Shown here: piece after piece, positions 1-54,775 of the stretch
Position numbering within the stretch: position 1 is the stretch's first letter
How the letters are laid out: the number at the start of each line of letters is the position of its first letter
DNA from: Patescibacteria group bacterium
GTDB taxonomy: Bacteria > Patescibacteriota > Saccharimonadia > UBA4664 > SCTI01
Direction of reading: 5' to 3'
DNA: 64,000 nt
Assembly: GCA_004297735.1 (NCBI GenBank)
Contig: SCTI01000001.1
Coordinates: forward strand, 115,467-179,466
Program-made: the position numbers and the translations under genes
The notes under the pieces: generated by a model
What the model saw: the letters and a program-made list of their open reading frames with translations, nothing else
Databases searched by the model: none
Told to the model about the DNA's origin: nothing

Positions 1-1
1 T

Positions 2-391
2 GTGAAGGTTTTTTACCTCAAAACCTGTAACGGCATGGGCGAAGTGGAGGTTCAACTGATCGCAATTGGCGCTGGCCGGTTTCGATACGTCTGGGACCCA
101 AGCGCCCAGGCGAATCGCTACGACGCCTGCCAGTTGCAGCAACTCTTTGACCGGGGCCGCCGCGCTGGCAGCCTAGACCCGGTTCAAGAAGACCGAGCGA
201 CACAGGGCTTCTACCGGTCTGGTCGTCGGCCAACACGCTGGATGATCGGGCAGCACGAGTTCACCGCGCAGGAGCTTACCAAGCTCCGCCTAAATCAGCC
301 CGGCTGGTTCGAGGTCCTGAGAGGCATCGGCAAGGATCTGCTCGCCGCGTTAATCGCGACGGTGAGTCCACGACGGCGGCACTGCAGCTGA
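2..391 (+). CDS. Hypothetical protein, 5'-partial (reading frame open to the window edge); GC-rich relative to the rest of the window
   Basis: ORF track 2..391, frame open from position 1. Diverse amino-acid composition, unlike the Arg/Gly/Pro-rich antisense frame. Local GC clearly higher than the neighbouring tig. Confidence 0.3.
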   Translation: MKVFYLKTCNGMGEVEVQLIAIGAGRFRYVWDPSAQANRYDACQLQQLFDRGRRAGSLDPVQEDRATQGFYRSGRRPTRWMIGQHEFTAQELTKLRLNQPGWFEVLRGIGKDLLAALIATVSPRRRHCS

Positions 392-402
392 CGTATCTAA
401 AA

Positions 403-430
403 CCCCGCTGCGACCAAGGTCGTGGCGGGG
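403..430 (+). terminator. Hairpin after the partial ORF (ccccgc ... gcgggg long stem); weak T-tract
   Basis: Inverted repeat ccccgctgcgac / gtcgtggcgggg seen directly. The trailing T-run is poor. Confidence 0.25.
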
Positions 431-486
431 ACTTTAGTTTATATAGCTCACAAATTGTCACGAATAGGTGGTTGGACGCAAATGGA

Positions 487-515
487 GTGACAAGCTCCCT
501 AATACCTGGTACAAT
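487..515 (+). promoter_or_regulatory. Sigma70-like promoter for tig (GTGACA -17- TACAAT); TSS about 8 nt before the ATG, so near-leaderless
   Basis: -35 gtgaca at 487-492, 17-nt spacer, -10 tacaat at 510-515. No RBS before the ATG at 524. Confidence 0.4.
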
Positions 516-523
516 CAGCACTT

Positions 524-1804
524 ATGAAAGCCGAAATTACCAATCAAACCGACAACCAAGTTACCTTAAAGATCGCTGCCACTGCCGATCAAATTAAACA
601 CGCGCTGGAGCACACTTATGACCACTACCGCCCCAAGGTAAAAGCCTCGGGTTTCCGGGCCGGTAAGGCACCAGATAATATTGTTGCTCGCGAGATTGGT
701 GATGAGGCGATTCAGGCCGAAACACTTGAGCACACCATGAGCCATGCTTATTCTGACGCGCTGGCAGAATACGACGTGGCGCCAATCGACCAGCCTAAGA
801 TCAACCTAATTAAATGGGTACCCTATGAGACTCTAGAGTTCGAGGCAACGGTTGAGGTGATGCCATCGGTTGATCTGCCAGATTACAAAAAGATTAAAAA
901 GGCAGTTAAGCCGGTTAAGATTGAATCGGCCAAGGTTGATGAAATGATTGAGGATTTGCGCCGCCGCGTGGCTAAGCGCATTCCGGCGCTTAATGCAGCC
1001 GCCATGGGTGATGAGGTTAAGATCGATTTTGAGGGCAAAAAAGAGGGTAAGATTATTGAGGGAGCGGTCAGTAAGAATTACACCCTCAAGCTCGGCTCAA
1101 ACACCTTCATCCCCGGCTTCGAAGAAGAGCTAGTTGGCGTTAAGGTTGGTGAGGGGAAAAGCTTTGAGGTAACCTTCCCTAAGGATTATCACGAAAAAAG
1201 TCTAGCCGGTCAGCCGGTCACCTTTAAGGTTAACGTACATGAGGTGACGCGATTAAAATTGCCCGAAGTAAATGACGAGTTCGCCGGTGAGGTTGGACCG
1301 TTCAAGACGGTAGCCGAACTAAAAGCCGATATTAAGGATCAGTTAAAAGCTGAGGCAGAAGAGTCGGCCAAGCGCGAATACGAAAATGAGCTGCTCGATG
1401 AAATTGCTGGCAAGGTTAAGTTTAAGGTGCCAGAAAAAATGGCCACCCAGCAGCTAGAGCGAATGAAGTCTGAGATTAGTCAGCGTTTAATGTCGAGCGG
1501 CATGACTATGGAACAATACCTAGAGATGCAGGGCAAAACTCAGGACGAACTTGAAAAAGAGCTACGCCCGGATGCCGAAAAGCGAGTTATTTTGTCCCTA
1601 GTATTGCAGGAAGTGGCCAAGGCCGAAAAGCTGACCGCGACCGAAGACGAGATTGAGGCTGAGCTGGATGCACTACGAATGCGTTATACCGACCCCAAAA
1701 TGCAAGAGCAGCTAAACAGCCATGATGTCCGGAACGACATCTTTAATCATATTCTCACCACCAAGACCATCGCTAAGTTGGTCGAGTACGCCCAAAAGAA
1801 GTAG
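524..1804 (+). CDS. tig: Trigger factor (ribosome-associated chaperone / PPIase)
   Basis: 426 aa with N-terminal ribosome-binding region, central FKBP-like segment and C-terminal arm. The classic tig-clpP neighbourhood is present. Confidence 0.9.
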   Translation: MKAEITNQTDNQVTLKIAATADQIKHALEHTYDHYRPKVKASGFRAGKAPDNIVAREIGDEAIQAETLEHTMSHAYSDALAEYDVAPIDQPKINLIKWVPYETLEFEATVEVMPSVDLPDYKKIKKAVKPVKIESAKVDEMIEDLRRRVAKRIPALNAAAMGDEVKIDFEGKKEGKIIEGAVSKNYTLKLGSNTFIPGFEEELVGVKVGEGKSFEVTFPKDYHEKSLAGQPVTFKVNVHEVTRLKLPEVNDEFAGEVGPFKTVAELKADIKDQLKAEAEESAKREYENELLDEIAGKVKFKVPEKMATQQLERMKSEISQRLMSSGMTMEQYLEMQGKTQDELEKELRPDAEKRVILSLVLQEVAKAEKLTATEDEIEAELDALRMRYTDPKMQEQLNSHDVRNDIFNHILTTKTIAKLVEYAQKK

Positions 1805-1810
1805 CTAAAA

Positions 1811-1969
1811 CTACTTCTTAGAGCCTTTTTTCTCAGCTTGAGACTGTTGCAGTTCAGACATGCGCTGATTTATTAATTGAAGGTTTTGCTTCGAAATCTC
1901 TAAACGCTGCAACTCGTCGTAGGCAAGCGCTTTTAACTTATCTATATCAGAAATTTGACTGAGATCCAT
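1811..1969 (-). CDS. Small hypothetical coiled-coil protein (52 aa), below the ORF-track length cutoff
   Basis: Minus-strand ATG at 1969 preceded by GAGGAG with 5-nt spacing. Translation MDLSQISDIDKLKALAYDELQRLEISKQNLQLINQRMSELQQSQAEKKGSKK, stop at 1811-1813. Convergent with tig. Confidence 0.4.
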   Translation of the reverse strand: MDLSQISDIDKLKALAYDELQRLEISKQNLQLINQRMSELQQSQAEKKGSKK

Positions 1970-2001
1970 AGTACTCCTCGAAGTAATCTGTTTAGTATGT
2001 C

Positions 2002-3870
2002 TTATAGTATATCAAACCAGGCGCCGTTGGCCGGAGCGGTAAATATCCAGCCAGTGTTGCCAGATACATTAGTGGAGTTGGCTCCGGCATACCAAGCTGC
2101 TCCTCCGGTGGCAGTTGAGTCTTGAATCGAAAGATAGTCGCAGCTTACCGTTCCACTTGATTTTGAGAGGGTAGCGGCTGAGCCCCCAGTAGAGCTGTTG
2201 ATTGTCATGAGCTTACCGGATGTTCCATTAACGTTAAACGCGCCCGTTATTGTGGTGGTAGTGCCACTAGTAAATTGAAGCGTCCTGGCGTTACTCGAGT
2301 CAGAGAAGTTGATGGTTCCAAAAGTGTTTGATCCGGTAATAATTAGGTTTCCAGTTGATCCGGCTAAAGTGTAGGTGAGAGTACCATATGTTTTATCTGC
2401 GCCGTTAAAAGTTCTGCTACTTGAGGTGGTCGTTGTGATGACAATAGTAGCACTACTTGAATTAACCACCGCGCCTGTACTAGTTACATTCCATACCGCA
2501 CTAGGAGATACCAGTGTCCCGGTTAGGGTCCAGGTGCCAGTTCCCATGTTAACGGTTGCTCCATTGTTAATCTGGTAGTTACCAATCGTGACATTATAGC
2601 TATTTGTTTCAAAGACCAAGCCAGATCCAACCGTTACTAAATTGTTCATCTGTAGCGCATCCTGCAAAGAGTATGTTGCGCCAGGTGCAGCTACCTGTCC
2701 AAACAAAGCCATGGACTTCCCGGCCGAGGTTATTGTATGTGAGCTCCGACCTGCAAGCGTAAAGGTAGTACCTCCATTTACTGTGCCGACATTTGTCAGG
2801 TTGAGGGAGCCATACATGAATGCTGTTGCAGTAACCGACCAGGTTGGGCTGCCGGAGCTTCCTGTCCAGTTTATGTCCTTACCGAGTCTTGGCATGTCTC
2901 CCGTAACTGTCTGACTCGCTGAGAATGCACTACTTATTACTACATTGTCTTGCGGTAGCGGCACACGGCTGGTCCATTTTGATACATCAGACCAGTTGCC
3001 TCCACTAGTGCCCTGCCAGGTTTGGGTAACCGAAGTGTCGAAAGTTATATTGCTGTTGCCTAGGCAGTTGCCTAGCGAAGTGCCAGTAAAAGGTATGGCT
3101 GCACCGCTTGCGTTAATGTCTCTAAAGTCAACATTGGTTAAGGATACCGATGCCGCGCTTACGGTGGCTGCAGAGCCTAGTGACAAAGATGTAGCGAGCA
3201 CCCTATTGGTAACACTATTGCCGGTAATAGTTAAAGTTCCAGTTACGATAGAGGATCCGCCGTTGAACTGGATGGTGTCTGTTTTCGCCGCCGTGCCAGT
3301 ACGGGTAAGGTTTTTGCACGTAAAGGTGTTTGCGACAATTGCCACACCAGAACCAGCCATAACAATAGATCCGCCATTAGTGTTAAAGCCAGAGCCACCA
3401 AACCAAGTCGAGGTAGCGCCATTTAGAGTAACGGTTGATGTGTTGGTGGTTACGGTAAGGTTGGTAAATGTACTTGTGTCCCAAGCAGTCCCAGTAGAGG
3501 TTAGCGTGATGGCGGAACTGCCCATTGTCAACGTACGAGCGCTGCTATTAGAAGATATTAGCTTGCCCCAGTTACAGGTTTGGCCATTTGCATTTAGGGT
3601 TCCAGTGGTAAGTGTGACTGCGCCCACCACGGTTGAACCAGCGTTGTGCAGTAAAGTTAGGTCAGACTTATTTATCGTAATGGTGTTGGCGTTGGCGGTT
3701 GCGCCAGTAATAGTTACGGTGGCGGCTGTGCCGGAGTTGCTGTCAAAGGTAACGTCGTCAGAAGATGTGGGTACTGACGCTCCACTCGAGCCCCCAGTGG
3801 TGGCGGACCAATGAGAGGTGTCCGACCCATCCCAGTTACCGCTACCTCCAACCCAAAAACGACTGGCCAT
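2002..3870 (-). CDS. Large Thr/Gly/Asn/Ser-rich repetitive protein (622 aa), beta-helix or adhesin-like passenger-type repeats; no signal peptide
   Basis: ORF track. Low-complexity repeats of the form TxTLTxTG...NGG. Its stop abuts the upstream gene at 3870/3871, so the two are co-transcribed. Confidence 0.6.
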   Translation of the reverse strand: MASRFWVGGSGNWDGSDTSHWSATTGGSSGASVPTSSDDVTFDSNSGTAATVTITGATANANTITINKSDLTLLHNAGSTVVGAVTLTTGTLNANGQTCNWGKLISSNSSARTLTMGSSAITLTSTGTAWDTSTFTNLTVTTNTSTVTLNGATSTWFGGSGFNTNGGSIVMAGSGVAIVANTFTCKNLTRTGTAAKTDTIQFNGGSSIVTGTLTITGNSVTNRVLATSLSLGSAATVSAASVSLTNVDFRDINASGAAIPFTGTSLGNCLGNSNITFDTSVTQTWQGTSGGNWSDVSKWTSRVPLPQDNVVISSAFSASQTVTGDMPRLGKDINWTGSSGSPTWSVTATAFMYGSLNLTNVGTVNGGTTFTLAGRSSHTITSAGKSMALFGQVAAPGATYSLQDALQMNNLVTVGSGLVFETNSYNVTIGNYQINNGATVNMGTGTWTLTGTLVSPSAVWNVTSTGAVVNSSSATIVITTTTSSSRTFNGADKTYGTLTYTLAGSTGNLIITGSNTFGTINFSDSSNARTLQFTSGTTTTITGAFNVNGTSGKLMTINSSTGGSAATLSKSSGTVSCDYLSIQDSTATGGAAWYAGANSTNVSGNTGWIFTAPANGAWFDIL

Positions 3871-6837
3871 TTAAGCTTCCTGCGAGACCGCCAAGCAGTC
3901 CCATTTACTATCGGCGCTGTTATATATGAACCCTAGGTAGTGCGTCTTACTAATAACGGTAGTTGTTGGCAAAGAGGTCCCAACCGCTCGGTAAATCGCA
4001 TTCCAGGCCAGAGATCTGGCAGTCCCATTATCTTTAATGCGGATAATTAGCGACTGGCCATCGGTTGGTGTCCCGGTTGGCGCGCCGAAGGTGGCGCCAA
4101 CCGCCAGGGCGGTCAGAAGGTAGACATCGGTAGTGTCGGCATTTGGCGTGGGAGTGGAGCTTGAGGTGTTGCTGGATATTCGCTTAGTGATACGCTTGTT
4201 GGTCAGGGTTTGGGTGGCATCGATGTTGGCTACCGAGTTAGCCGCCGTACCGGCCGCAGCAACAATTAGGTTGTCATCGGTCTTGAGGGTGTCGGCAGCT
4301 GAGCGATAAAGGTTGGTGTCAGCTGATGCTCCTTGGCCAAACAATATGCCAGCTCCGGGTGTAGCAGAAGCGGTTGCGCCAATGTAGACTTGGTTTGCGG
4401 TTCCGTTATTGGCGCTTAAATAAGATGCTGATAAAAACTGATCATCGGTTTTTAGGGTGTCAGCGGCGCTTCTATATAAGTTGGTGTCGGTTCCAAATGT
4501 AATACCACTAGCTGCCGTACCAGCGGTGCTACTTAACTGTAGTGTATATGTCGAAGCACCCGCGATACGTACCCCAATATTAGATGAACTACCAGCTGTT
4601 TGAGCTGCGACATCTACGCCATATAGATTGACGGGTACTATTGATCCCAAGCTTGGGGCAGATATATACATCGCTACTGCATTGGTTAGAACCCCGGAGT
4701 CAGTACCAGTGTCAATGCGATTAAACCCTGCGTAGGCAGTACCAATAGTCACTCCTGTAGGGGGAGTGCTTTTAGCAATATTAATAAACCCATACACCAC
4801 CGTTGGGTCGGTAGATGGCTTAAATTCGGGCTGTACCGCTAGGCCACCAGGACCAGCGGCGCTACCTGAAAAAATTGGGCTAACCTGCTGGCCTCTTGCG
4901 TTTGCTGTTGAGGTCGTAGTGGTGCCGGTAACAAGCATAAGTGTACTTGGGTTGGATGTAGGCTCAACACGGAGCATGTCATCTGTCTTTAAGACATCGG
5001 CCGCTGAACGGTAAAGGTTAGTGTCGGTTGCGCTGGCTCCACCGGCTCCCCACTCGTGCTTGCCATCGCCAAAAATTCGAAAGGCGGCGTTTGTATCACC
5101 GTTGATTAAATAGTTTGCTATAAATGCGGTTACAGCTGTTTGTGAACCTTGGAGCGCAACCGTTGTAGCTGTATCGGCAAAAAAACCAACAGCTGCGCGT
5201 AACCTGTCGTCGGTTTTTAAACTATCTGCTGCCGAGCGATACAGGTTGGTATCGGCACCGAACAAAATACCACCGGCAGCGGTTGTGGCACTATCAAACG
5301 TAAGGGCCGAACTAATCGTGGCGCTTGATCCGATTCGGACCTTACCGGAGTTATCGATTCGCATACGCTCGGTTACGGTCGTTGTGCCAGCGGGGGTGGT
5401 GTAGAAAGCCAGGCGTCCTGGCATGTCGGCAGCGGCCGGAGTGCCGTCAACCTCCGCCCGGATTAAGGCCGCAAAGGTGTTTGAGTTTGAGCCGTTAGCT
5501 CCAATAAAACTGATCTGACCAAGGTTATCGCCTGACTGCACAATTGTCGTGGAGCCATTGGCTGTTCCGCGCGATTTTACAAAATATATACCGGGCGGGT
5601 TGGCGTCGGCCGAGTTTCTGGTGGCGGATATGGTGGATCCAGCCGCATCGGTACCTTCTAATTGAAGTTGAGGAATTAGGCCGTTGATTGTTCTGAGAGT
5701 TGTATTGTTGTTGCTAATTAAGGTTGCGCCACTAGGATTGACCGTGATCAGCGATGTACCAGAGTACTGTAAACGATAAGCGGTTGTGGCGGCAGAGGTG
5801 ACATTAAGGCGAATACCAGAGGTATTATTGGTTGAAGTAAACTCCAGGATTGGTGCCGCTGCCGTAAAACGCAGAGTCCCGGTATTGGTCCGGGCAAAGG
5901 TGGAGTCGCCACCAAAAGAAAGACCCCCGCTGGTGCTTGCGTTATCGGGGAACAGTATTTGGGTGCTAGCCCCTGACATATTGAGGCTGCCATTCATGGT
6001 GTCGCCGGTATCATCCACCTTGCCAGCAATTGCACTGGTATTTGCCTTTAGGTCGAGTGCGGCCTGGGTGGCAGTTGAGATTGGTTTACTTAAGTCGGAG
6101 GTATTGTCGACATTGCCCAGGCCTACCGCCGACTTATCTAGCGTTTGCCAGCTTTTGTCGCCCCGCCAGTATTGAAGAGTAGTACCAGCGGTGATAGTTG
6201 GCTCTTTGCCGGCTAAGTCGCTGGTTAGATTGGCGACTTTTGCCTGGGCGATATTGGCGCCAACCGCTACCTCGGTGTCGGTTATGGCTAGCGCAATCTT
6301 GTTTTGAGAGATATTGGCCGAGTTTGATATATCAATATCGAGGATGGTGCTTGGGGCGATTTTGCCGGTAGTAACGGCATCGTCAGCCAGCTTAACCTCG
6401 GTGACCGATCCGTCAATAGGGGTTCGCGCGTTGGTCAAGCGTGAGTCGTCGCCTTTAACAACCTGGGTGGCCGTTGCATCACCGCTAGCGGCAACGTCTT
6501 TAGTGGCGGCGGTTCCCAGGCCCGAGACGTCATTGGTATCGAGTGTGACTGCCCCGGTCTTACCGGCGACACTGGTTACCGGTGCGCCTGGCGGGGCAGA
6601 CCATATACCATCGCCGCGCAAGTAGGTACCAGAGTTGGCAGCGCCGCCGCCAAGTTGACCGGCAACAACTAGCCCCCCGCCATCCAACTCAGCCACACCA
6701 CCAGGTTGGCCTTTTTGGGCAGCAGGAATAGGCTGAATCTTAAGTGAGCCATCATCATTATGCTCAACTTTTAAGAAATCATTAAGTAACTCACCCCATT
6801 GACCATTATCTGATCCTGGAATAGGTAAACGAGTCAT
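3871..6837 (-). CDS. Phage tail-fibre-like giant protein (988 aa): tail-fibre repeat motifs (GLGNVDNTSDLSKPIS, GDTMNGSLNMSG), 4x TNLYRSAADxLKTDD repeats, conserved N-terminal module shared with CDS 24159..26432
   Basis: Motifs read directly from the translation. Repeat copies at about nt 5250, 5022, 4485 and 4317. No N-terminal hydrophobic signal. Confidence 0.65.
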   Translation of the reverse strand: MTRLPIPGSDNGQWGELLNDFLKVEHNDDGSLKIQPIPAAQKGQPGGVAELDGGGLVVAGQLGGGAANSGTYLRGDGIWSAPPGAPVTSVAGKTGAVTLDTNDVSGLGTAATKDVAASGDATATQVVKGDDSRLTNARTPIDGSVTEVKLADDAVTTGKIAPSTILDIDISNSANISQNKIALAITDTEVAVGANIAQAKVANLTSDLAGKEPTITAGTTLQYWRGDKSWQTLDKSAVGLGNVDNTSDLSKPISTATQAALDLKANTSAIAGKVDDTGDTMNGSLNMSGASTQILFPDNASTSGGLSFGGDSTFARTNTGTLRFTAAAPILEFTSTNNTSGIRLNVTSAATTAYRLQYSGTSLITVNPSGATLISNNNTTLRTINGLIPQLQLEGTDAAGSTISATRNSADANPPGIYFVKSRGTANGSTTIVQSGDNLGQISFIGANGSNSNTFAALIRAEVDGTPAAADMPGRLAFYTTPAGTTTVTERMRIDNSGKVRIGSSATISSALTFDSATTAAGGILFGADTNLYRSAADSLKTDDRLRAAVGFFADTATTVALQGSQTAVTAFIANYLINGDTNAAFRIFGDGKHEWGAGGASATDTNLYRSAADVLKTDDMLRVEPTSNPSTLMLVTGTTTTSTANARGQQVSPIFSGSAAGPGGLAVQPEFKPSTDPTVVYGFINIAKSTPPTGVTIGTAYAGFNRIDTGTDSGVLTNAVAMYISAPSLGSIVPVNLYGVDVAAQTAGSSSNIGVRIAGASTYTLQLSSTAGTAASGITFGTDTNLYRSAADTLKTDDQFLSASYLSANNGTANQVYIGATASATPGAGILFGQGASADTNLYRSAADTLKTDDNLIVAAAGTAANSVANIDATQTLTNKRITKRISSNTSSSTPTPNADTTDVYLLTALAVGATFGAPTGTPTDGQSLIIRIKDNGTARSLAWNAIYRAVGTSLPTTTVISKTHYLGFIYNSADSKWDCLAVSQEA

Positions 6838-7024
6838 GTTTTAGTTCAAAACCCTACACACAAACATTTAGACATACTTCTTATGATTACATTATATTCT
6901 GACAGAGCAATTAAACCAAGTAATTTTGCTTATATATTAGAGTTAGTATAGCTAAATTAGCAGTCTAGACAGGGGAGTGCTAAAAAGCTATACTAAAAAC
7001 CAAGAGATTTGGCAGGAGTAACTC

Positions 7025-7630
7025 ATGAATCAGACCCCAAAAAATTCAATCTTAGTCCCAACCGTTTTAGAAAAAACTCATCAAGGTGAGCGCGCCTACG
7101 ATATTTACTCGCGCCTGCTTAAGGACCGAATTATTTTTGTTGGTACTGCTATTGATGATACGGTGGCGAATCTAATAATTGCACAGTTGCTTCATCTCGA
7201 GAATGAAGATCCTAAGGCTGATATCCAGATGTACATTAACTCGCCGGGTGGATCGGTTTATGCTGGCCTAGCTATGATTGATACGATGAACTACATTAAG
7301 CCAGAGGTTTCGACTATTTGTGTTGGGATGGCGTTTAGTATGGGGTCGCAGTTGCTGGCTGCGGGCGCAAAAGGCAAACGCTTTGCACTCCCAAATTCTA
7401 AGGTCATGATTCACCAGGGGTCGGCGGGATTCCAGGGGAGCCCATCGGATATCGAGATTACTGCTAAAGAGGTCCTGTCGCTTCGTGAGGTGTTGGATCG
7501 GCAGCTAGCTGAGGCTACCGGAAAGTCATATGAGCAGGTTCGTAAAGACTCTGATCGTGACTACTACATGACCGCAAAAGAGGCTAAAGAGTATGGCATT
7601 ATTGACGAGGTAATTAGCCGTAGCTCGTAA
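7025..7630 (+). CDS. clpP: ATP-dependent Clp protease proteolytic subunit
   Basis: 201 aa with catalytic Ser (GMAFSMGS), His (MIHQ) and Asp triad context. Preceded by a GGAG RBS. Confidence 0.95.
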
Positions 7631-19822: not shown

Positions 19823-20146
19823 ATGACCAAAGAAGACGCACCTAAACAACGAATTCGCATCCGCTTAAAGGCCTACGATAACAAGGTTATCGACCAGTCG
19901 GCCAAGCAGATTCTTGATACCGCTATTCGCACCGGCGCTAAGGTTGCGGGGCCAATTCCGCTCCCAACCGACCGCAAGGTGACCACGGTCATCAAGAGCC
20001 CGCACGTCTTTAAAAAGGGACGAGAGCAGTTTGAGATGCGAACTCACAAGCGGCTATTAGACATCACCGAGCCAACCCCACGAACCGTTGACTCGCTGAT
20101 GAACCTCAATTTGCCAGCTGGCGTCGATATTGAAATCAAGATGTAG
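19823..20146 (+). CDS. rpsJ: 30S ribosomal protein S10
   Basis: 107 aa with the S10 signature RIRLKAYD. Confidence 0.95.
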
Positions 20147-20167
20147 CCATTAAGGCTGATCGCAAAG

Positions 20168-20196
20168 AAGTCCCGAAAGGGGCTTTTTTGTTTTTA
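20168..20196 (+). terminator. Rho-independent terminator after rpsJ
   Basis: aagtccc-gaaa-ggggctt stem-loop followed by tttttgttttt. Confidence 0.6.
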
Positions 20197-20329
20197 ACAT
20201 TCCAGATGTATTAGTTTAATACTACAAGCGCAGATATGAAATTAAGGCAATATTTGTAATTATTCACCAATGACAATATGATAAAGATAAGAGCATTGTA
20301 GAAATAGCTTAACAAAGGAGTTTTTAGTA

Positions 20330-20878
20330 ATGAAAGAGTATCTCCAAACAATGTGGTGGCTTTTGCTACTACGCGGCATATTTCTAATCCTACTAGGATT
20401 TTTTGCGGTGGTGTGGCCTGGTCTCACCCTGTACAGTTTTGCCCTCGGCTTTGCGTTGTACCTGGTGCTAGCAGGCATCGTCAATGCAATTAGCAGCCTG
20501 ATGGGTATTGGTAAGTTGCCACTGTGGTTTTTGTGGCTAGTGGTTGCCATTCTTGAGATTGGCGTAGGTGTATATGCACTTAAGCACCTGACTCTAACGG
20601 TGGCCACCATGATCTTGTTGGTAGGCCTGGTCTTTGTGGTCCGCGGCCTAATGGAGCTGATCTCCGCCTTTGGCGATGGCTTTGACGGCAAGCAGCGCAC
20701 CCTGTACGCCCTGTTGGGTGTATTGAGCTTGATTGCTGGTGTGGCGGTTTGGCTGTACCCGGTTGCGGGCGGCCTAGCCTTTACCTGGATCATTGGTTTG
20801 TACGGTATTGCGGCCGGCGCGTTCTTAATTGCGATGGCAATCGAGGCCAAGGGAGAGCTGAACAAGCTTGCGGCCTAA
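20330..20878 (+). CDS. HdeD/DUF308-like small multi-pass membrane protein
   Basis: 182 aa, about 6 TM helices, repeated W/G-rich helices typical of the HdeD family. Assignment is from general family appearance only. Confidence 0.5.
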   Translation: MKEYLQTMWWLLLLRGIFLILLGFFAVVWPGLTLYSFALGFALYLVLAGIVNAISSLMGIGKLPLWFLWLVVAILEIGVGVYALKHLTLTVATMILLVGLVFVVRGLMELISAFGDGFDGKQRTLYALLGVLSLIAGVAVWLYPVAGGLAFTWIIGLYGIAAGAFLIAMAIEAKGELNKLAA

Positions 20879-20991
20879 CTAGAGCGTCCATAACAGCCAC
20901 CCTTGATGCTCTGGGTGGCTGTTTGGATCTGCTTATGGTTGCGTTTAGATAAATCACAGGCCACAATGGGTGGCATACGGTAAGGAGAAGT

Positions 20992-21486
20992 ATGGATTTT
21001 CAGCAGGCAATTGAGTTTATGGCGGCGGTGTTAGTGGTAGCCGGTTCCGGAATTGTCTTGGGAGTGGCGATTAGAGGTAGAGGGCAGGTTAAGGCTCAAG
21101 CTCAAGCGAACCAAGCCCAGAGTAAGTTGGCTGATCTGTATGCAGAAATTATTGGTGAGTTGGACGAAGTTACAAAGGCCGATGAGCGGCGGAAGCAGTG
21201 GTTTATACATCGCTACTATCAAGCCTTGGTGACTGCTCCAGATTCGGTGATTCGGGCGCTCAACCGTTATCTCGACGCGGTTGGTACGGTCGAAGATGTT
21301 GATACCAAACAGATTATGGAGCTGCGTGGAGCCTTGATTAAGGCGATGAGACAGGATATTCAGCAGTCGGTAGGGACAAAAACCAAGCTGCACCCGCAGG
21401 AGCTTTACAAGATTGAGATCCGCTCTGGCGTAATTGATGAGGCGTCCGCCAAAGATACCCGCCGCGAAAGACAAACCTCACGCTAG
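20992..21486 (+). CDS. Hypothetical protein with an N-terminal TM helix and a coiled-coil region
   Basis: ORF track, 164 aa. Confidence 0.5.
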   Translation: MDFQQAIEFMAAVLVVAGSGIVLGVAIRGRGQVKAQAQANQAQSKLADLYAEIIGELDEVTKADERRKQWFIHRYYQALVTAPDSVIRALNRYLDAVGTVEDVDTKQIMELRGALIKAMRQDIQQSVGTKTKLHPQELYKIEIRSGVIDEASAKDTRRERQTSR

Positions 21487-21551
21487 TAGTAGTAAATTCC
21501 TAGCATAAGCAGTATTATCAAAAAGTAAAACTATCAAACGGAAGCAGTTAA

Positions 21552-22019
21552 ATGGCTAGACCAACACAGCGGCGAGTGTATCGCCAAGCTAGTGGCAATC
21601 AAAACCTCGCTAGTCGCTATAATAGCCGTCGCTGGTATGAAATTCCCGACTGGGCAAAGGTTTGGGTGGTGGATAATGCCGGATGGGTTACCGCTATCAT
21701 TGCGCTGGTTTTATTCCCACCGACTTTGCTAGCGCTGGTATTGGGGGTGTACCGACTGCCCTTCCTCGATTTTTTGGGTGTACCGACCAGCGCCAATGGG
21801 CTTGGTTTGGCCGCCGCGGTCTTAATTATTAAATTTATTTTTGTGGTGGCAGCGATCCGGCCGCTATTTAAACGAGAAATAAAGGGCTGGTATTTCCTGG
21901 TTGCCGCCGCCACTGTCCACTTGGCGCATAGTGTGATCCTCCAGCACGCTATTACTGGTACGGCAGTGCTATTGGGTACGGTGTATCTCTACGTTATGGT
22001 GCGCCGTCGATATCACTAA
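21552..22019 (+). CDS. Small membrane protein, paralog A of a tandem pair
   Basis: 155 aa. Shares the motifs W.V...W......LVLF.P..LLAL..G....PF and LF.R..I.GW with the next gene. Confidence 0.55.
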   Translation: MARPTQRRVYRQASGNQNLASRYNSRRWYEIPDWAKVWVVDNAGWVTAIIALVLFPPTLLALVLGVYRLPFLDFLGVPTSANGLGLAAAVLIIKFIFVVAAIRPLFKREIKGWYFLVAAATVHLAHSVILQHAITGTAVLLGTVYLYVMVRRRYH

Positions 22020-22082
22020 AGGTGTGTTTGCTTTAGTATAAGCATTAGTAGTATGATCACCTTGTAATAAAAGGAAATTATC

Positions 22083-22532
22083 ATGGCAACCTCCCAACCA
22101 CCAAAAGAGCTAATGGGATGGCTTGAATATTATTTAGTGACCAAGGCTCCGTTTCAGATCCCGCCCAACGCGCGTGAGTGGATTGTAAAATATAGCCCCT
22201 GGATTAACATCGTACTGTTAGTATTGTTCGCACCGGCAATTTTGCTTGCACTAGGAGTTGGAGCGGCGTTGGTGCCATTTAGTGCGGTCGGGGGAGCGAG
22301 TGCAGCCACCGGACTATCTTTTGCGCTGGTAGCCCTGGTGCTTCAAGTTGGCTTGATGATCGCTGCCCTACCTGGTTTGTTTGCGCGCAAAAAGATTGGT
22401 TGGCAACTGGTATTTTATAGTGTGGTGCTGAACCTGATCTTTAGCCTCCTTAACTTTAATATTGTTGGCGGTTTACTCAGCGCGGTATTAGGGTCATACG
22501 TTCTGTTCCAGATCAAGTCCTACTACAAATAG
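22083..22532 (+). CDS. Small membrane protein, paralog B of a tandem pair
   Basis: 149 aa. See the paralog at 21552..22019. Confidence 0.55.
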   Translation: MATSQPPKELMGWLEYYLVTKAPFQIPPNAREWIVKYSPWINIVLLVLFAPAILLALGVGAALVPFSAVGGASAATGLSFALVALVLQVGLMIAALPGLFARKKIGWQLVFYSVVLNLIFSLLNFNIVGGLLSAVLGSYVLFQIKSYYK

Positions 22533-22598
22533 GCCGAAGCCGCCTCGGGCCAAACATTAACCGTTGTCAGCTAACGATCTGAAGCGGATAATGACGAC

Positions 22599-23807: not shown

Positions 23808-23830
23808 AGTTTTGAGGTATATTCTGAGGC

Positions 23831-24082
23831 ATGGCTCGAACTATTAAGTCGACAAACACAGAGTACGACAGCGTTTATTTTTTGAAGGTGTTGTTGTATC
23901 TAGTTTTGGCAACAACCTGGCTAGCCCCTTCTGGCCATCGCTATGTACCGGTTGGCCTTATTATTGGTGTGATTATAGTTCAGCACGAACGCTTCCAGAT
24001 TGATCGAAAGATAGAATATGCGGTGATGTTGGTTGGAGCGGTGCTTGGTTTGGTGGGTATTGGTATTACTATTTCGATTTAG
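23831..24082 (+). CDS. Small 2-TM membrane protein, hypothetical
   Basis: ORF track, 83 aa, hydrophobic. Confidence 0.4.
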   Translation: MARTIKSTNTEYDSVYFLKVLLYLVLATTWLAPSGHRYVPVGLIIGVIIVQHERFQIDRKIEYAVMLVGAVLGLVGIGITISI

Positions 24083-24158
24083 CCCCACCTCCTTATTGCC
24101 CTTACGCTTACATCCAGCTACAATAAGTAACAAGTTAAGTGTGAGTTAATTAGCATTC

Positions 24159-26432
24159 ATGGCCCGTCTCCCAACAATAGGAAGCGATAACGGTAATTGG
24201 GGAGCTATCCTCAATGACTACTTGTCTCAAGAACTAAACTCAGATGGCTCCCTTAAGATCCGTACCGATGGCACACTATCCTCAGCTGTAGCTGACGGTT
24301 CCATTACAGCCTCTAAACTCTCACCCACCGTTAACAACTATCTAGCTTCCGCCCAAACTGCTGTACAGAGTGTTAACGGTAAGGCTGGTACCGCTGTAAC
24401 TCTAGCTGCCGCAGATATCTCGGGCGTGGTACCCTCCACTCAGTTAGGAGCAGCCTCCGGCGTAGCCACCTTAGACGGCTCAAGCAAGCTTACTAGTAGT
24501 CAAATACCAGCAACGGTGTCGACAGCGAGTGGTGGCAGTGACGGCCAGATTTCGGTAGTTTCAGGTGGTTTGTTCACGCTCAAGGACCCTTCGGTAATAG
24601 ATATAACAATGCCGCCATACAACGCCGACCCAACCGGCACTACTGATGCTTCAGCAGAGTTTCAGGCTGCAATAAATGCACTTTATTCAGCCGGCGGCGG
24701 CACTATATACGCCCCAACCGGCACGTACTTATTTTCTAATACGCAAATGTCATGGCGGACCAAAGTATCTTTAAGGGGTGATGGACCTGGGCAAACTATT
24801 TTTAAAATGGTTGGCTGGGGAGGGTCATTAATTGAAAAGGGCAATAGCTATGCTTCGCCAATGAAGGATTGTACGTTCTCCGACTTTGAGGTTGATGGCT
24901 CACTTATTGATGGTCGAGTTTGTTCTGCGACAAATGGTTCAGCGACGATTACGAGCGCTGGGCATGGATTGAGCAACGGTGACGCTGTTCGCTGGGCAAG
25001 CGGTCTTGCTCCTACCAACTTCACCGCACTTACAACAGCGTATTATGTTGTCAACAAGACAACCGATACATTCCAGCTGTCGGCGACACTTAACGGTGCG
25101 GCAATTAACGCTGGGTCAACTGGCGGTGCATATAAAACCTTTACGACAGCAAAGGCAATCTATACCACATATAACGTCCGTAACCGTTACGTTAACCTGT
25201 ATGTTCACGACACCACTGCAACCGGCCTGGGAGTCGATTTTCTTGTCGATTGCGCTTTTGACCGGTGCGTTGTCGAAAATGCCGGGCGCGACTCAGGCGG
25301 GAGCCTATTGGGCTCTTCGGGGATTGGCATTGGCACCGGAGCTTGGGATGTCGAAAGCACCACTATTACCGACTGCATAATTCGTAGCAGCGCACGTAAT
25401 GGAATATTTTTCGAAAGGCAGGCCACATTGCCTAACGGTGGAGGGTCGGGCGGAACCCCATATTATAGCCGCGGAGCCATAGTCCATGGTAATACAATCA
25501 TTGCTTGCAAGTATGGTATTGCGGATAACGGAATAGAAGGGGCCCAAATTTGGGGTAATAGGATCGAAGACAGCACCTCCTACGGTTTTTATGTTGGTGC
25601 CGGGAACGCGGGCACAGCAGGGCGCAAGGGTAAGTTTTTTAAGAACATTGTTAAAAACTCTACCAGTTATGGTATTTACCTTGATGCCAGTACGACAACA
25701 TTGTCTGGCTATGAGATCAGTTCGAATGACGTTTATGAAAACGATATTGGAATTAAGGTCGCGTCGTCTGCGGCTGTACCGGAGCTAATTATTACCGATA
25801 ATGATGTTCGCAGTAACGAACGGCAGGGTATGCACGGTGGTGGTTCCGGAGCACTTACCGACGCTACCGTTATTGGCAACAGGTTTTTTAATAACGGCAC
25901 CGTTACCACCAATGCCGGTCTGGAACTAACAATGGACCTAACCCGATGTCGTATAAATCGCAATCGTGCGTTTGACAACCAGGGCGTAAAGACGCAGAGT
26001 ACGGGGGTTATTTTATCGGGCACCAATATTGCTGGGGGTGAGATCATGGATAATGATGTTATAGGTAACTCGGGGACAGGTTTAAGCATCACCAATGATA
26101 CTCAGAGCGGGTGTCTGGTTCGTCGAAATCGAGGCGCAACAACGTATCGCCAGGCTACCGCTACATCAGCGACGATGCGCCTAAACGCCGAAGTGCTTGC
26201 CGTAACCGACACATCGGCATTGCGTACCATTACTCTTCCTGGTGCTTCGGGTTTGCCGGTTGGTTCGCGAATTACGGTAAAGGACGAAAGTAATGCAGCT
26301 GGAACCAACAATATTACAATTCAGCGTGCTGGTTCGGATACGATTGATGGATCGACATCGACTACCATATCGACCAACAGTGGTTCGAAGTCATTTTATA
26401 CCGATGGATCCACTAAGTGGTTTAGCGTCTAA
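24159..26432 (+). CDS. Tailspike/depolymerase-like protein (757 aa): N-terminal module shared with CDS 3871..6837, tail-fibre-like repeat (VNGKAGTAVTLAAADISGV), then a pectate-lyase-3-type right-handed beta-helix
   Basis: PPYNADPTGTTDASAEFQAAINALYSAGGGTIYAPTGTYLF resembles the start of the Pectate_lyase_3 domain. Downstream are multiple parallel beta-helix repeats (IHGNTIIACKYGIADNG, IEDSTSYGFYV, IVKNSTSYGIYLD, ITDNDVRSNE...). Confidence 0.65.
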   Translation: MARLPTIGSDNGNWGAILNDYLSQELNSDGSLKIRTDGTLSSAVADGSITASKLSPTVNNYLASAQTAVQSVNGKAGTAVTLAAADISGVVPSTQLGAASGVATLDGSSKLTSSQIPATVSTASGGSDGQISVVSGGLFTLKDPSVIDITMPPYNADPTGTTDASAEFQAAINALYSAGGGTIYAPTGTYLFSNTQMSWRTKVSLRGDGPGQTIFKMVGWGGSLIEKGNSYASPMKDCTFSDFEVDGSLIDGRVCSATNGSATITSAGHGLSNGDAVRWASGLAPTNFTALTTAYYVVNKTTDTFQLSATLNGAAINAGSTGGAYKTFTTAKAIYTTYNVRNRYVNLYVHDTTATGLGVDFLVDCAFDRCVVENAGRDSGGSLLGSSGIGIGTGAWDVESTTITDCIIRSSARNGIFFERQATLPNGGGSGGTPYYSRGAIVHGNTIIACKYGIADNGIEGAQIWGNRIEDSTSYGFYVGAGNAGTAGRKGKFFKNIVKNSTSYGIYLDASTTTLSGYEISSNDVYENDIGIKVASSAAVPELIITDNDVRSNERQGMHGGGSGALTDATVIGNRFFNNGTVTTNAGLELTMDLTRCRINRNRAFDNQGVKTQSTGVILSGTNIAGGEIMDNDVIGNSGTGLSITNDTQSGCLVRRNRGATTYRQATATSATMRLNAEVLAVTDTSALRTITLPGASGLPVGSRITVKDESNAAGTNNITIQRAGSDTIDGSTSTTISTNSGSKSFYTDGSTKWFSV

Positions 26433-26450
26433 CAATACAAACGTTACCTG

Positions 26451-26480
26451 TTGACACCTGATGGTTTTTACTGATATAGT
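26451..26480 (+). promoter_or_regulatory. Sigma70-like promoter re-initiating the S10/spc block (TTGACA -18- TATAGT)
   Basis: ttgaca at 26451-26456 and tatagt at 26475-26480. A roughly 110-nt leader follows before rplC. Confidence 0.45.
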
Positions 26481-54767: not shown

Positions 54768-54775
54768 AGGAGAAT

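What the first reader, a model, noticed from the sequence alone, without database searches (positions are those of the whole stretch)
2002..6837. Two-gene operon of giant repetitive, signal-less proteins (tail-fibre-like 988 aa + Thr-rich 622 aa) inserted between tig and clpP
Seen: the 988-aa protein carries GLGNVDNTSDLSKPISTATQAALDLKA and GDTMNGSLNMSG, which I recognise as phage tail-fibre repeat signatures, plus four dispersed copies of DTNLYRSAAD[STV]LKTDD (nt about 5250, 5022, 4485, 4317). The downstream 622-aa protein is a T/G/N/S-rich beta-strand repeat protein. The two are translationally abutted (3870/3871). Established: tig-clpP(-clpX) are normally adjacent, and clpX is absent here altogether. 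Inference: an acquired fibre/adhesin cassette. Codon usage looks native, so it is probably old.
Basis: partly seen in the sequence, partly recalled or inferred. Interest (0 to 1): 0.6.

Follow-up and report, generated by a model that had tools for sequence, protein, structure and literature searches.

The report
Phage-fibre cassette in a Saccharibacteria chromosome
A tiny parasitic (CPR/Saccharibacteria) bacterium carries, wedged between two housekeeping genes, an intact pair of genes of virus tail-fibre type with no other virus genes nearby; it may use them to recognise the cells it lives on, but that use is not shown.

Summary
Two abutting minus-strand genes (988 aa at 3871-6837, 622 aa at 2002-3870) lie between tig and clpP. 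Neither has a signal peptide or a membrane segment. The organism is a Saccharimonadia (Patescibacteria) MAG. The 988-aa protein is a mosaic phage tail-fibre protein. The 622-aa protein is a confidently modelled beta-solenoid from a large, unannotated family that is common in uncultured phages. In those phages it follows a fibre gene ending in the same C-terminal domain as the 988-aa protein. Relatives show that tig|clpP is a cassette hotspot: one genome has it empty, others hold different fibre cassettes. ClpX is missing beside clpP in all of them, so its absence is unrelated to the insertion. No other phage gene was recognised in the window among the ORFs scanned or read, or in the Pfam-annotated flanks of six related chromosomal loci. 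The fibre starts with a 38-aa N-terminal "head". A second tailspike-like gene in the window (24159-26432) shares it, as do about 6,000 protein clusters, many on long chromosomal contigs; it is nearly absent from viral contigs. Codon usage of the 622-aa gene is not native. My best reading is a chromosomal, exchangeable, phage-derived receptor-binding module, possibly a host-recognition adhesin like Bdellovibrio MAT fibres. Export and function are unproven.

The parts
3871..6837 (-). Gene A: 988-aa mosaic fibre protein with no signal peptide
   Evidence: ORF. PHROG hits: tail fibre phrog_18345 and 9942, minor tail 2952 and 2012, phrog_3030. No Pfam or NCBIfam hit. tblastn to phage tail-fibre and minor-tail genes. 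The AF2 model is poor overall (pLDDT 46.6), but Foldseek top hits are Bdellovibrio MAT fibres, the T5 L-shaped tail fibre and CBA120 TSP4.
6724..6837 (-). N-terminal 'head' of A (aa 1-38, MTRLPIPGSDNGQWGELLNDFLKVEHNDDGSLK...)
   Evidence: Invariant R3, P5, D10, W14, G15, L18, N19 and G30 across 19 proteins from chromosomal loci. 5,981 clusters at 50% identity match it, in nearly all of the 150 best at residue 1. Only 2 IMG/VR contigs carry it. It is shared with the gene at 24159-26432.
5971..6123 (-). DUF5907-like tail-fibre motif plus GDTMNGSL motif (aa 239-289)
   Evidence: Sequence. Homologues carry PF19264 and PF12789. A itself scores no Pfam hit.
5308..5934 (-). Fibre-shaft domain (aa 302-510), including ...DMPGRLAFYTT...ERMRID...
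   Evidence: phrog_18345 tail fibre over aa 302-510. 39-53% identity to cyanophage tail-fibre genes. Best-conserved block in alignment A2. AF2 pLDDT is 64-79 for aa 410-500.
4273..5253 (-). Region with the four dispersed DTNLYRSAAD[STV]LKTDD motifs (5206-5253, 4978-5025, 4441-4488, 4273-4320)
   Evidence: The same motif occurs twice in the 440-aa cassette protein of relative L054.
3874..4230 (-). C-terminal domain of A (aa 870-988), the module that is genomically coupled to B
   Evidence: phrog_3030, E 5e-29. 49-52% identical to the C-terminus of gp114 of Bxz1-like mycobacteriophages. In 33 of 80 B-bearing viral loci it ends a fibre gene one or two genes upstream of B. AF2 pLDDT 70-87.
2002..3870 (-). 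Gene B: 622-aa all-beta solenoid protein with no signal peptide
   Evidence: More than 1,300 homologues at 45-70% identity over the full length, none annotated. AF2 pLDDT 93.5, pTM 0.87. BFVD hits to uncultured Caudovirales proteins, E 3e-30 to 5e-19, one named 'Parallel beta-helix repeat' with TM 0.69. No PDB relative by fold or by profile. At least 510 loci in IMG/VR.
2881..2967 (-). Most conserved block of B (aa 302-330, RVPLPQDNV...DMPRLG); W-x-G-G-x-G-x-W motifs lie at aa 6-21 (3808-3855) and aa 285-299 (2974-3018)
   Evidence: Invariant P304, D308 and M326; nearly invariant R302, V303, L305, Q307, D325, P327, R328 and G330 in 53 sequences. Motifs found.
1811..1969 (-). Possible third gene: 52-aa predicted coiled-coil ORF with GAGGAG 6 nt upstream
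   Evidence: Sequence. Called as a gene in the source contig. Not conserved in L002, L003 or L004.
6873..6919 (-). Promoter-like element for A: TTGGTT, 17 nt, TATAAT, plus a conserved 27-nt block
   Evidence: GAATATAATGTAATCATAAGAAGTATG is identical in the window and L003 and partly kept in L054. The consensus scan did not flag it because the -35 matches only 3 of 6.
6957..6983 (.). CIRCE-type inverted repeat (TTAGCAGTC-N9-GAGTGCTAA) upstream of clpP; it marks the clpP-side edge of the insertion
   Evidence: Conserved in the window, L003, L054 and the empty-site relative L055. The CIRCE consensus is from my own knowledge.
24159..26432 (+). Second member of the N-head family in the window: 757-aa tailspike-like protein between rpsJ and rplC
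   Evidence: 39.7% identity to A over aa 1-140. PHROG tail spike 2234 and 7458, baseplate 20556. No Pfam hit. No hydrophobic segment.

Best explanation
The locus is an accessory cassette of about 5.1 kb (about 1805-6956) sitting in the tig|clpP intergenic hotspot of a Saccharimonadia (Patescibacteria/CPR) chromosome. It encodes a phage-derived receptor-binding module.

Shown:
- The two genes are intact, abutting and preceded by a conserved promoter-like element.
- A is a mosaic of tail-fibre modules.
- B is a beta-solenoid of a family abundant in uncultured phages.
- In phages, B follows a fibre gene that ends in the same roughly 115-aa C-terminal domain as A, usually with a small 55-85-aa gene in between.
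- No phage capsid, tail or integrase gene was recognised near the cassette here, or in the Pfam-annotated flanks of six related chromosomal loci.
- Related genomes have the same site empty or filled with other fibre cassettes.
- A begins with a 38-aa head that is shared by a second tailspike-like gene in the window and by thousands of RBP-like proteins, 11 of 65 sampled on contigs of 100 kb or more, yet is almost absent from viral contigs.

Inferred:
- A forms a trimeric fibre whose C-terminal domain holds B as the distal glycan-binding, or possibly glycan-cleaving, unit.
- The N-head is a common handle that docks these fibres to one cellular partner, either an anchor or an export route.
- The cell makes the complex for its own use, most likely to recognise and hold the surface of its host bacterium, in the manner of the Bdellovibrio MAT fibre adhesins.
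- Cassettes are swapped between strains by homologous recombination through the conserved flanks. Saccharibacteria are naturally competent.

Confidence is split. About 0.85 that this is a chromosomal, non-prophage, phage-derived RBP cassette in a hotspot. About 0.35-0.4 that its job is host recognition by the epibiont.
For: Anatomy.

Organism: the nearest named Tig homologues are Ca. Saccharimonadales/Saccharimonadia. B-family genomic loci are mostly Ca. Saccharibacteria and other CPR MAGs.

Fibre nature of A.

B fold and viral abundance.

Coupling of the A C-terminal domain to B:
- In 33 of 80 viral loci the domain ends a gene 1-2 positions upstream of B (28 at two genes upstream, 4 at one gene upstream, 1 at three).
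- In chromosomal loci the A-like gene abuts B in L003, L004, L009, L011, L022, L031 and L041, and lies within 20 nt in L002 and one pair of L028.

Hotspot:
- L055 has tig and clpP 63 nt apart.
- L054 carries a 440-aa A-like gene plus a 228-aa LamG gene.
- L003 carries A723 + B626 + another A-like gene.
- A further relative has a 146-aa ORF there.

No phage hallmarks: the rest of the window is core genes (ribosomal operons, rpoBC, tuf, dnaX, dnaB and others). The flanks in L002, L004, L009, L140 and L141 carry housekeeping Pfam families and no phage family; the ORFs flanking the pair in L011, L022 and L041 were listed but not scanned.

N-head family:
- 5,981 clusters, at residue 1 in nearly all of the 150 best.
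- The proteins carry DUF5907, pectate-lyase-like, BppL_N, beta-helix, HylP, endosialidase-N, K1-lyase, GDSL and CBM5/12 modules.
- 0 of 80 B-bearing viral loci have it, and only 2 of 2.9 M IMG/VR contigs do.
- 11 of 65 metagenomic loci lie on contigs of 100 kb to 1.07 Mb.
- Several copies occur per genome: at least 5 on one 370-kb contig, and 3 in tandem in L196.
- Another hotspot (rplL|dnaX) is filled with an N-head gene in L141.

The B domain is used outside CPR cells. In other CPR proteins the same domain starts right after a Sec signal-peptide cleavage site, or sits inside 1,600-4,300-aa proteins with signal peptides.

Selection: the ORFs are intact at 60-69% identity to L003 orthologues while RpoB/RpoC are 91-92% identical. 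The peptide motifs are conserved over diverged DNA.

Precedents: surface-displayed phage-fibre-like MAT adhesins with a shared N-domain and swapped tips in the predator Bdellovibrio (PMC10769870). Natural competence and essential adhesins in Saccharibacteria (PMC10633639).
Against: - Neither A, B nor the 757-aa paralogue has a signal peptide, membrane segment or wall-anchor motif. No export route is identified.
- A Tat-like small carrier protein lies beside A-like genes in only 3-4 loci and not here.
- The signal-less form of B is the phage-type form.
- B's codon usage is foreign, so the cassette may be too young for its intactness to prove function.
- In one viral contig (L136) an N-head tailspike follows the tape-measure gene directly. 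The head can therefore serve in a real phage tail.
- Only 64 kb of the genome could be seen, so a prophage or tailocin elsewhere is not excluded.
- There are no expression, localisation or binding data.
- The AF2 model of A is poor, so the fold matches rest on two moderately confident segments.
Confidence: 0.45

Rival explanations
1. The genes are receptor-binding proteins supplied in trans to a phage-tail-like particle: a resident prophage, a tailocin, or phages that infect this bacterium, encoded elsewhere in the genome. The N-head would then be the tail-attachment domain, and the scattered genes would be alternative fibres for that particle.
For: In viral contig L136 an N-head tailspike overlaps the stop of the tape-measure gene, which is the classical RBP position. 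A, B and the paralogue lack signal peptides, as virion proteins do. B and the A C-terminal domain form a standard phage module. B's codon usage is foreign.
Against: No tail, baseplate, capsid, terminase or integrase family was found in the ORFs of the 64-kb window that were scanned or read, or within 10 kb in the six related chromosomal loci whose flanking genes carry Pfam calls. The N-head is almost absent from 2.9 M viral contigs. In cultured Streptomyces phages it lies among tRNA genes, not in the tail module. Lone genes sit at several hotspots between core genes.
Confidence: 0.2
2. This is a recently acquired, functionless leftover of a phage (a prophage remnant or selfish cargo) that has not yet decayed.
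For: B's codon usage is foreign and GC3 is low in A and B. Content at the site is variable or absent in relatives. No recognisable function or export signal was found.
Against: Two long ORFs (988 and 622 aa) are intact and translationally coupled. The orthologous pair sits at the same site in L003 at 60-69% identity with both ORFs intact. The promoter block is conserved. The pair recurs next to housekeeping genes in at least eight other Saccharibacteria/CPR loci. These genomes are about 1 Mb and streamlined (my knowledge), and there is no integrase or att-like flanking repeat.
Confidence: 0.15
3. The module has an anti-phage function. Cell-made fibre proteins would either mask or strip the cell's own phage receptor, or poison the assembly of incoming phage fibres. 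The site would be a defence hotspot.
For: The same genome holds a retron-type reverse transcriptase in another gap inside a core operon (rplA|rplJ). Hotspot turnover is typical of defence islands (my knowledge). Released tail fibres can protect a community by removing the receptor (cited in PMC11934309).
Against: A, B and the paralogue have no match to 5,027 PADLOC models. The enzyme and lectin repertoire of the N-head family fits binding of foreign glycans as well as or better than a decoy role. No toxin or effector partner is present.
Confidence: 0.1

Closest known systems
Bdellovibrio bacteriovorus MAT (mosaic adhesive trimer) fibre superfamily (Caulton et al. 2024, PMC10769870)
   Same: Both are multi-copy families of phage-fibre-like proteins of about 1,000 aa in a bacterium that lives on other bacteria. 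Both combine a conserved N-terminal part with swapped tips or bodies. The best fold matches of A are Bd1334 and Bd2439 (E 4e-7 to 4e-5, 22-29% identity).
   Different: [quoted passage not shown] A has no signal peptide, a 38-aa head and no S74, and it comes with a separate beta-solenoid partner. The organism is a monoderm-like CPR bacterium. Phmmer finds no sequence relationship.
Phage two-part receptor-binding modules: fibre plus distal partner (e.g. T4 gp37/gp38, branched tailspikes of CBA120/G7C). The named examples are from my own knowledge.
   Same: A fibre gene is followed, tightly coupled, by a second RBP-type gene. The fibre's C-terminal domain co-occurs with the partner across many phage contigs. 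CBA120 TSP4 N-terminal domains are among the fold hits.
   Different: Here the module stands alone in a chromosome without a virion. The small gene that separates the two in 28 of the 33 viral loci that carry the C-terminal domain is absent. No homology to gp38, Tfa or S74 chaperones was detected.
gp114 of Bxz1-like (cluster C) mycobacteriophages, phrog_3030
   Same: Its C-terminal 118 aa are 49-52% identical to the C-terminal domain of A.
   Different: gp114 is 272 aa, is unannotated, and lies beside a putative capsid-decoration gene upstream of the tail sheath. It has no B-type neighbour, and B is absent from cultured actinophages.
Signal-less ligand-binding DGR target proteins of CPR bacteria (Roux et al. 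2021, PMC8144416)
   Same: Variable binding proteins of CPR without a recognisable membrane or secretion signal pose the same localisation puzzle.
   Different: No template/variable repeat pair is present, and the only reverse transcriptase in the window is retron-type. No C-type lectin domain was detected.
Variable cassettes between conserved flanking genes, exchanged by transformation (e.g. the pneumococcal cps locus between dexB and aliA; from my own knowledge)
   Same: Alternative gene sets occupy one site bounded by conserved core genes, with no integrase or att repeats. The lineage is naturally competent (PMC10633639).
   Different: The cargo is phage-type fibre genes, not biosynthetic genes. 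Exchange by recombination is inferred, not shown.

Membership tests
Phage tail fibre / receptor-binding protein (gene A) | Sequence homology to established tail-fibre families | tested here: met
   PHROG tail fibre 18345 (7e-23), 9942 (3e-17), 24919; minor tail 2952 and 2012. tblastn hits to annotated tail-fibre and minor-tail genes in 360 phage records.
Phage tail fibre / receptor-binding protein (gene A) | Encoded in a phage or prophage tail module (next to tape measure, baseplate, capsid genes) | tested here: not met
   Neighbours are tig, clpP and rpoBC. The ORFs of the rest of the 64-kb window that were scanned or read are core genes. The flanks of L002, L004 and L009 carry no phage Pfam family, and the orthologous pair in L003 has the same clpP-rpoBC neighbours.
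Phage tail fibre / receptor-binding protein (gene A) | Trimeric elongated fibre structure | tested here: inconclusive
   The monomer AF2 model is poor (pLDDT 46.6). Local fold matches to trimeric fibres (MAT, T5 pb1) are significant. No multimer prediction was available.
Pfam DUF5907 (PF19264) | Pfam model match | tested here: not met
   No Pfam family at E <= 1 for A, although the motif is visible at aa 239-265, many homologues carry PF19264, and 21 of 68 N-head proteins do so.
Bdellovibrio MAT superfamily | Sec signal peptide followed by the conserved beta-rich N-domain of about 130 aa | tested here: not met
   No hydrophobic N-terminus. The N-terminal conserved unit is a 38-aa head starting at Met1. 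The MAT definition comes from PMC10769870.
Bdellovibrio MAT superfamily | Fibre-body fold shared with solved MAT structures | tested here: met
   Foldseek: 8oml (Bd1334) E 3.8e-7; 8onf and 8ol4 (Bd2439) E 2.5e-5 to 3.9e-5; probability 1.00. This rests on moderately confident model segments only.
Bdellovibrio MAT superfamily | Surface display on the bacterium | not testable with these tools
   Requires tagging or immunolabelling.
Right-handed beta-helix tailspike / depolymerase (gene B) | Beta-helix or solenoid fold | tested here: met
   AF2 pLDDT 93.5, all short beta-strands. BFVD match named 'Parallel beta-helix repeat', TM 0.69/0.57, E 5e-23. PDB hits are all beta-helix proteins but not significant (E > 0.2).
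Right-handed beta-helix tailspike / depolymerase (gene B) | Match to Beta_helix, Pectate_lyase or related profiles, or a recognisable catalytic site | tested here: not met
   No Pfam, NCBIfam or PHROG family. No PDB sequence relative, even with a 53-sequence profile. The conserved Asp/Arg block at aa 302-330 was noted but not assigned.
Prophage / tailocin | Integrase, att repeats, and capsid or tail genes adjacent | tested here: not met
   No flanking direct repeats. No such genes in the window ORFs that were scanned or read.
Diversity-generating retroelement target | Nearby DGR reverse transcriptase with a template/variable repeat pair | tested here: not met
   The only RT (56062-57258) matches retron models best. 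No TR/VR-like repeat exists in the 64 kb.
Known anti-phage defence systems (PADLOC) | Match to a defence-system protein model | tested here: not met
   No PADLOC hits for A, B, the 757-aa paralogue or the 52-aa ORF.

The most novel reading that the evidence does not exclude
Saccharibacteria and other CPR epibionts have taken phage receptor-binding modules into their chromosomes. Among cultured phages, the relatives of several modules of A are mostly actinophages, the viruses of their Actinobacteria hosts. The epibionts would have fitted these modules with a common 38-aa N-terminal head that hands signal-less, pre-folded fibres to a still unknown export or anchoring route. They would use them as exchangeable host-recognition determinants, swapped by transformation at hotspots between core genes. 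Host range of the epibiont would then be written in these cassettes.
Probability: 0.3. Interest if true: 0.85.

Novelty: new variant of a known kind. Interest (0 to 1): 0.6.

Why it matters
How ultrasmall CPR epibionts pick and hold their host cells is largely unknown. Type IV pili and a few lectin-like adhesins are the only leads (PMC10633639, PMC11623550).

A large chromosomal family of phage-type fibres and tailspikes would be a concrete and testable candidate for host-specificity determinants. The relevant properties are a shared N-terminal handle, several copies per genome, and placement in exchangeable cassettes. Saccharibacteria can now be transformed and mutagenised, so the test is feasible.

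The family also poses a cell-biology question: how would signal-less fibres leave a cell? In addition, it gives two unannotated families, the B beta-solenoid and the N-head, a first context.

If the genes instead serve a phage or a tailocin, they would still mark CPR-phage biology that has barely been described.

Tried and rejected
- Pfam and NCBIfam on A and B gave nothing.
- PDB sequence searches, with single sequences and with profiles, gave nothing meaningful for A, B or the N-head.
- DGR-target idea: rejected. The RT in the window is retron-type and there is no TR/VR repeat.
- Known defence system: rejected by PADLOC.
- DNA tandem repeats or recent duplication as the source of the four motifs: rejected.
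- att-like flanking repeats or an integrase: none found.
- Structured RNA in 1-7100: none found.
- Tat 'hitch-hiker' export was considered. Small proteins with an SRKEFLRY-type motif plus a membrane segment sit upstream of A-like genes, and tatC/tatA lie next to B genes. This was seen in only 3-5 related loci and not in the window or most other loci, so it stays an idea.
- Autotransporter-type repeat for B's W-x-G-G-x-G-x-W motifs: no Pfam support.
- Internal duplication of B: only suggestive.
- Taxonomy of N-head proteins by cluster names: the sources gave no organism names.
- Literature searches found no description of this module. 'Saccharibacteria' + 'tail fiber' and CPR + tail fiber gave nothing relevant, and DUF5907 gave no papers at all.
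Full report
**1. The observation**

The window holds tig (524-1804, +), two minus-strand ORFs of 622 aa (2002-3870) and 988 aa (3871-6837), then clpP (7025-7630, +), rpoB and rpoC. I call the 988-aa protein A and the 622-aa protein B.

- The stop codon of A directly abuts the start of B (GCT TAA ATG), with AGGAAG just upstream.
- All quoted peptides are present. The four DTNLYRSAAD[STV]LKTDD motifs lie within 3 nt of the stated positions.
- Their DNA is only 74-79% identical, so the peptide is selected and the copies are not recent duplicates.
- There are no DNA tandem repeats.
- Neither protein has any hydrophobic segment. Maximum hydropathy is 1.40 and 1.43, against 2.5-2.6 for membrane proteins of the same window, and there is no LPxTG.
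- A 52-aa ORF with a good ribosome-binding site follows B (1811-1969). It is not conserved in relatives.

**2. The organism and the site**

The exact proteins come from a 'Patescibacteria group bacterium' MAG with a 273-kb contig. The nearest named trigger-factor homologues are Ca. Saccharimonadales/Saccharimonadia.

Relatives settle the insertion question.

- In L055 (Tig 63% identical, 916-kb contig), tig and clpP are 63 nt apart.
- In L054 (70%), the gap holds a 440-aa A-like gene plus a 228-aa LamG gene on the minus strand.
- Another relative has a single 146-aa ORF there.
- L003 has A (723 aa), B (626 aa) and the start of a further A-like gene.

ClpP is not followed by clpX in any of them. 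RpoB follows directly in L003, L054 and L055, and three other genes lie between clpP and rpoB in the fourth relative. The missing clpX is therefore a lineage trait, and none is found in the window.

A CIRCE-type inverted repeat (6957-6983) upstream of clpP is conserved in all four genomes, including the empty site. It marks the edge of the insert. Next to it, a promoter-like element for A (TTGGTT-17-TATAAT plus a 27-nt block) is identical in the window and L003. No flanking repeats or integrase are present.

**3. Protein A**

A has no Pfam or NCBIfam hit. It does match PHROG tail-fibre and minor-tail families along aa 75-545, and phrog_3030 at aa 870-988.

In cultured phages it matches pieces of tail-fibre or minor-tail genes in 360 records. 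About 87% of these are actinophages (Mycobacterium, Arthrobacter, Gordonia, Streptomyces, Rhodococcus, Tsukamurella) and the rest are mostly cyanophages. That collection is rich in actinophages (my knowledge), so I did not quantify the enrichment.

- The C-terminal 118 aa are 49-52% identical to the C-terminus of gp114 of Bxz1-like mycobacteriophages.
- The first 33-46 aa match only six Streptomyces phages, where the gene lies among tRNA genes rather than in the tail module.
- The monomer AF2 model is poor (pLDDT 46.6). Only aa 410-500 and 885-988 are moderately confident.
- Even so, its significant PDB matches are all fibres: Bdellovibrio MAT proteins Bd1334 and Bd2439 (E 4e-7 to 4e-5), the T5 L-shaped tail fibre, and CBA120 TSP4.

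**4. Protein B**

B belongs to a family of more than 1,300 detected homologues at 45-70% identity over the full length, none of them annotated.

- With a 53-sequence alignment, AF2 gives pLDDT 93.5 and pTM 0.87, and an all-beta solenoid of short strands.
- No solved structure is significantly similar, by fold or by sequence profile.
- Predicted structures of uncultured Caudovirales proteins match strongly (E 3e-30; one named 'Parallel beta-helix repeat', TM 0.69).
- Cultured phages almost lack the family: one weak hit.
- IMG/VR holds at least 510 loci.
- Some contigs show it among portal, MuF, protease and capsid genes, or next to a prophage.

In genomes the family is concentrated in Ca. Saccharibacteria and other CPR MAGs. 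It occurs there in two forms. One is signal-less proteins of 600-900 aa starting MAxR[FY]WVGGxGxW, like B. In the other, the same domain starts right after a signal-peptide cleavage site or lies inside 1,600-4,300-aa proteins.

**5. The A-B coupling**

In 33 of 80 B-bearing viral loci, a fibre gene of any length and any N-terminus ends in the A-type C-terminal domain. It lies two genes (28 loci), one gene (4) or three genes (1) upstream of B. A 55-85-aa gene usually sits between them.

In chromosomal CPR loci an A-like gene abuts B directly, or lies within 20 nt of it, in L002, L003, L004, L009, L011, L022, L031 and L041 and in one of the two pairs of L028.

The partner can differ. L054 and L002/L004 pair an A-like gene with a LamG protein. 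I infer that the C-terminal domain of A is where the distal partner docks. This was not tested.

**6. The N-terminal head**

The first 38 aa of A are shared with a second gene in the window, 24159-26432 (757 aa). That gene is tailspike-like by PHROG, has no signal peptide, and lies in a 6.4-kb insertion between rpsJ and rplC.

- A profile of the two heads finds 5,981 clusters at 50% identity, 1,941 of them at E <= 1e-10. In nearly all of the 150 best the match starts at residue 1, in proteins of 63-1,287 aa.
- Of 68 members scanned, 21 carry DUF5907, 19 pectate-lyase-like, 16 BppL_N and 11 beta-helix domains. Others carry HylP, endosialidase-N, K1-lyase, GDSL esterase or CBM5/12 domains.
- None of the 80 B-bearing viral loci has the head, and only two IMG/VR contigs do.
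- In metagenomes, 11 of 65 loci lie on contigs of 100 kb to 1.07 Mb. GC is 0.30-0.55, and several copies occur per contig.
- The contexts inspected are housekeeping genes.
- L141 is syntenic with the window's rplJ-rplL-dnaX-dnaB region but has an N-head gene inserted there.

One caution applies. In viral contig L136 an N-head tailspike follows the tape-measure gene directly, so the head can work in a real phage tail.

**7. Age and selection**

Total GC of A and B is like that of the genome. GC3 is lower: 0.49 and 0.47, against 0.57. The synonymous codon usage of B is uncorrelated with that of other window genes (r = -0.02; ordinary genes 0.5-0.85; A 0.60; the 757-aa gene 0.52).

Against L003, RpoB and RpoC are 91-92% identical, while A is 69% (with a block indel of about 265 aa) and B is 60%.

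Together with the alternative cassettes, this points to fast evolution or allele replacement, not to an old, ameliorated insertion. The long ORFs are intact in both genomes and the promoter is conserved, which argues that the genes are kept in use.

**8. What it most likely is**

The firm part (confidence about 0.85) is that this is a chromosomal, non-prophage cassette of phage-derived receptor-binding genes in a hotspot between core genes.

The functional part (about 0.35-0.4) is that the cell makes a fibre (A) that carries a beta-solenoid (B), and uses it to recognise its host's surface, like the surface-displayed MAT fibres of Bdellovibrio (PMC10769870).

In support:
- The B domain is clearly used with secretion signals by other CPR proteins.
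- Adhesins are essential for a cultivated Saccharibacterium (PMC10633639).
- Among cultured phages, the relatives of several modules of A are mostly actinophages, and Actinobacteria are the known hosts of cultivated Saccharibacteria.
- A host prophage was recently shown to bind a Saccharibacterium (PMC13578794), which gives a route for gene flow.

The main gap is export. There is no signal and no known route. The same puzzle was noted for signal-less DGR targets of CPR (PMC8144416).

**9. Rivals**

- In-trans fibres for a phage-tail-like particle encoded elsewhere (0.2).
- A young, functionless phage leftover (0.15).
- An anti-phage role (0.1). A retron-type RT does occupy a similar gap between rplA and rplJ, but PADLOC gives nothing for A or B.

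Only 64 kb of the genome was visible, so the first rival cannot be excluded here.

**10. Novelty**

I found no paper describing this module, the B family or the N-head.

The kind is known: phage-fibre-like adhesins in a bacterium that attacks other bacteria, and phage RBP modules. The variant appears undescribed. It consists of signal-less proteins with a 38-aa common head, a separate beta-solenoid partner, and cassette hotspots between core genes of CPR genomes.

Noticed in passing
window 24159-26432 (+): A second signal-less phage-RBP-like gene (757 aa). It has the same 38-aa N-terminal head as the 988-aa protein and a tailspike-type beta-helix body (PHROG tail spike and baseplate families), with no Pfam hit.
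   Followed up: partly
window 20147-26526: A stretch of about 6.4 kb lies between rpsJ (19823-20146) and rplC (26527-27240), which are adjacent in many bacteria (my knowledge). It holds a DUF308 membrane protein, three small ORFs without any Pfam hit (two look membrane-like by eye), a rarA/mgsA AAA+ gene and the 757-aa tailspike-like gene.
   Followed up: partly
window 56062-57258 (+): A 398-aa reverse transcriptase lies between rplA and rplJ. Its best PADLOC match is retron RT type VI (E 6e-25). It has an Arg-rich C-terminal tail, no TR/VR repeats occur in the window, and no msr/msd RNA was sought. Two small ORFs follow it (57386-57625 and 57629-57955).
   Followed up: partly
window 6957-6983: A CIRCE-type inverted repeat (TTAGCAGTC-N9-GAGTGCTAA) lies about 40 nt upstream of clpP and is conserved in three relatives. 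It suggests HrcA control of clpP in this lineage.
   Followed up: partly
window 1811-1969 (-): A 52-aa predicted coiled-coil ORF with GAGGAG upstream lies directly downstream of the 622-aa gene. It is not conserved in related cassettes and has no database match.
   Followed up: partly
window 1-500: GC is 58.6% here against about 50% nearby. The ORF at 2-391 runs off the window start, has no Pfam hit, and no Rfam match was found.
   Followed up: partly
window 54740-55783 (+): Ribosomal protein L1 is called as 347 aa, with the L1 domain only at aa 142-331. The N-terminal 140 aa are a Glu/Lys/Asp-rich extension (or the GTG start is miscalled). A Lys/Ala-rich 15-nt-period repeat also occurs at 39434-39534, at the end of the ORF 39047-39541.
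   Followed up: no
L024 7387-7590, L038 4165-4356, L051 148-420; tatC in L013, L024, L031, L037, L051: In several Saccharibacteria loci, small 63-90-aa proteins with a Tat-like SRKEFLRY motif plus one membrane segment sit just upstream of A-like genes. In addition, tatC (and tatA in L037) lie next to B-family genes. This is a possible hitch-hiker export route, but it was not seen in the window.
   Followed up: partly
L013 1241-17267: Six B-family paralogues (703-1,134 aa) lie in tandem with overlapping stop/start codons in one Saccharibacteria MAG contig.
   Followed up: no
L005 (38.5-kb contig, the same protein seen in about 30 sample blocks): A phage-like contig carries a B homologue, but none of its eight proteins scanned matches any PHROG family. 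It includes a 1,679-aa protein and an AP2-domain protein. This may be an undescribed mobile element or phage lineage.
   Followed up: no
L054 10284-12292; L002 6372-9907: These loci hold alternative cassette types: an A-like fibre followed by a LamG (Laminin_G_3) protein of about 228 aa instead of B. In L054 this occupies the same tig|clpP site.
   Followed up: partly
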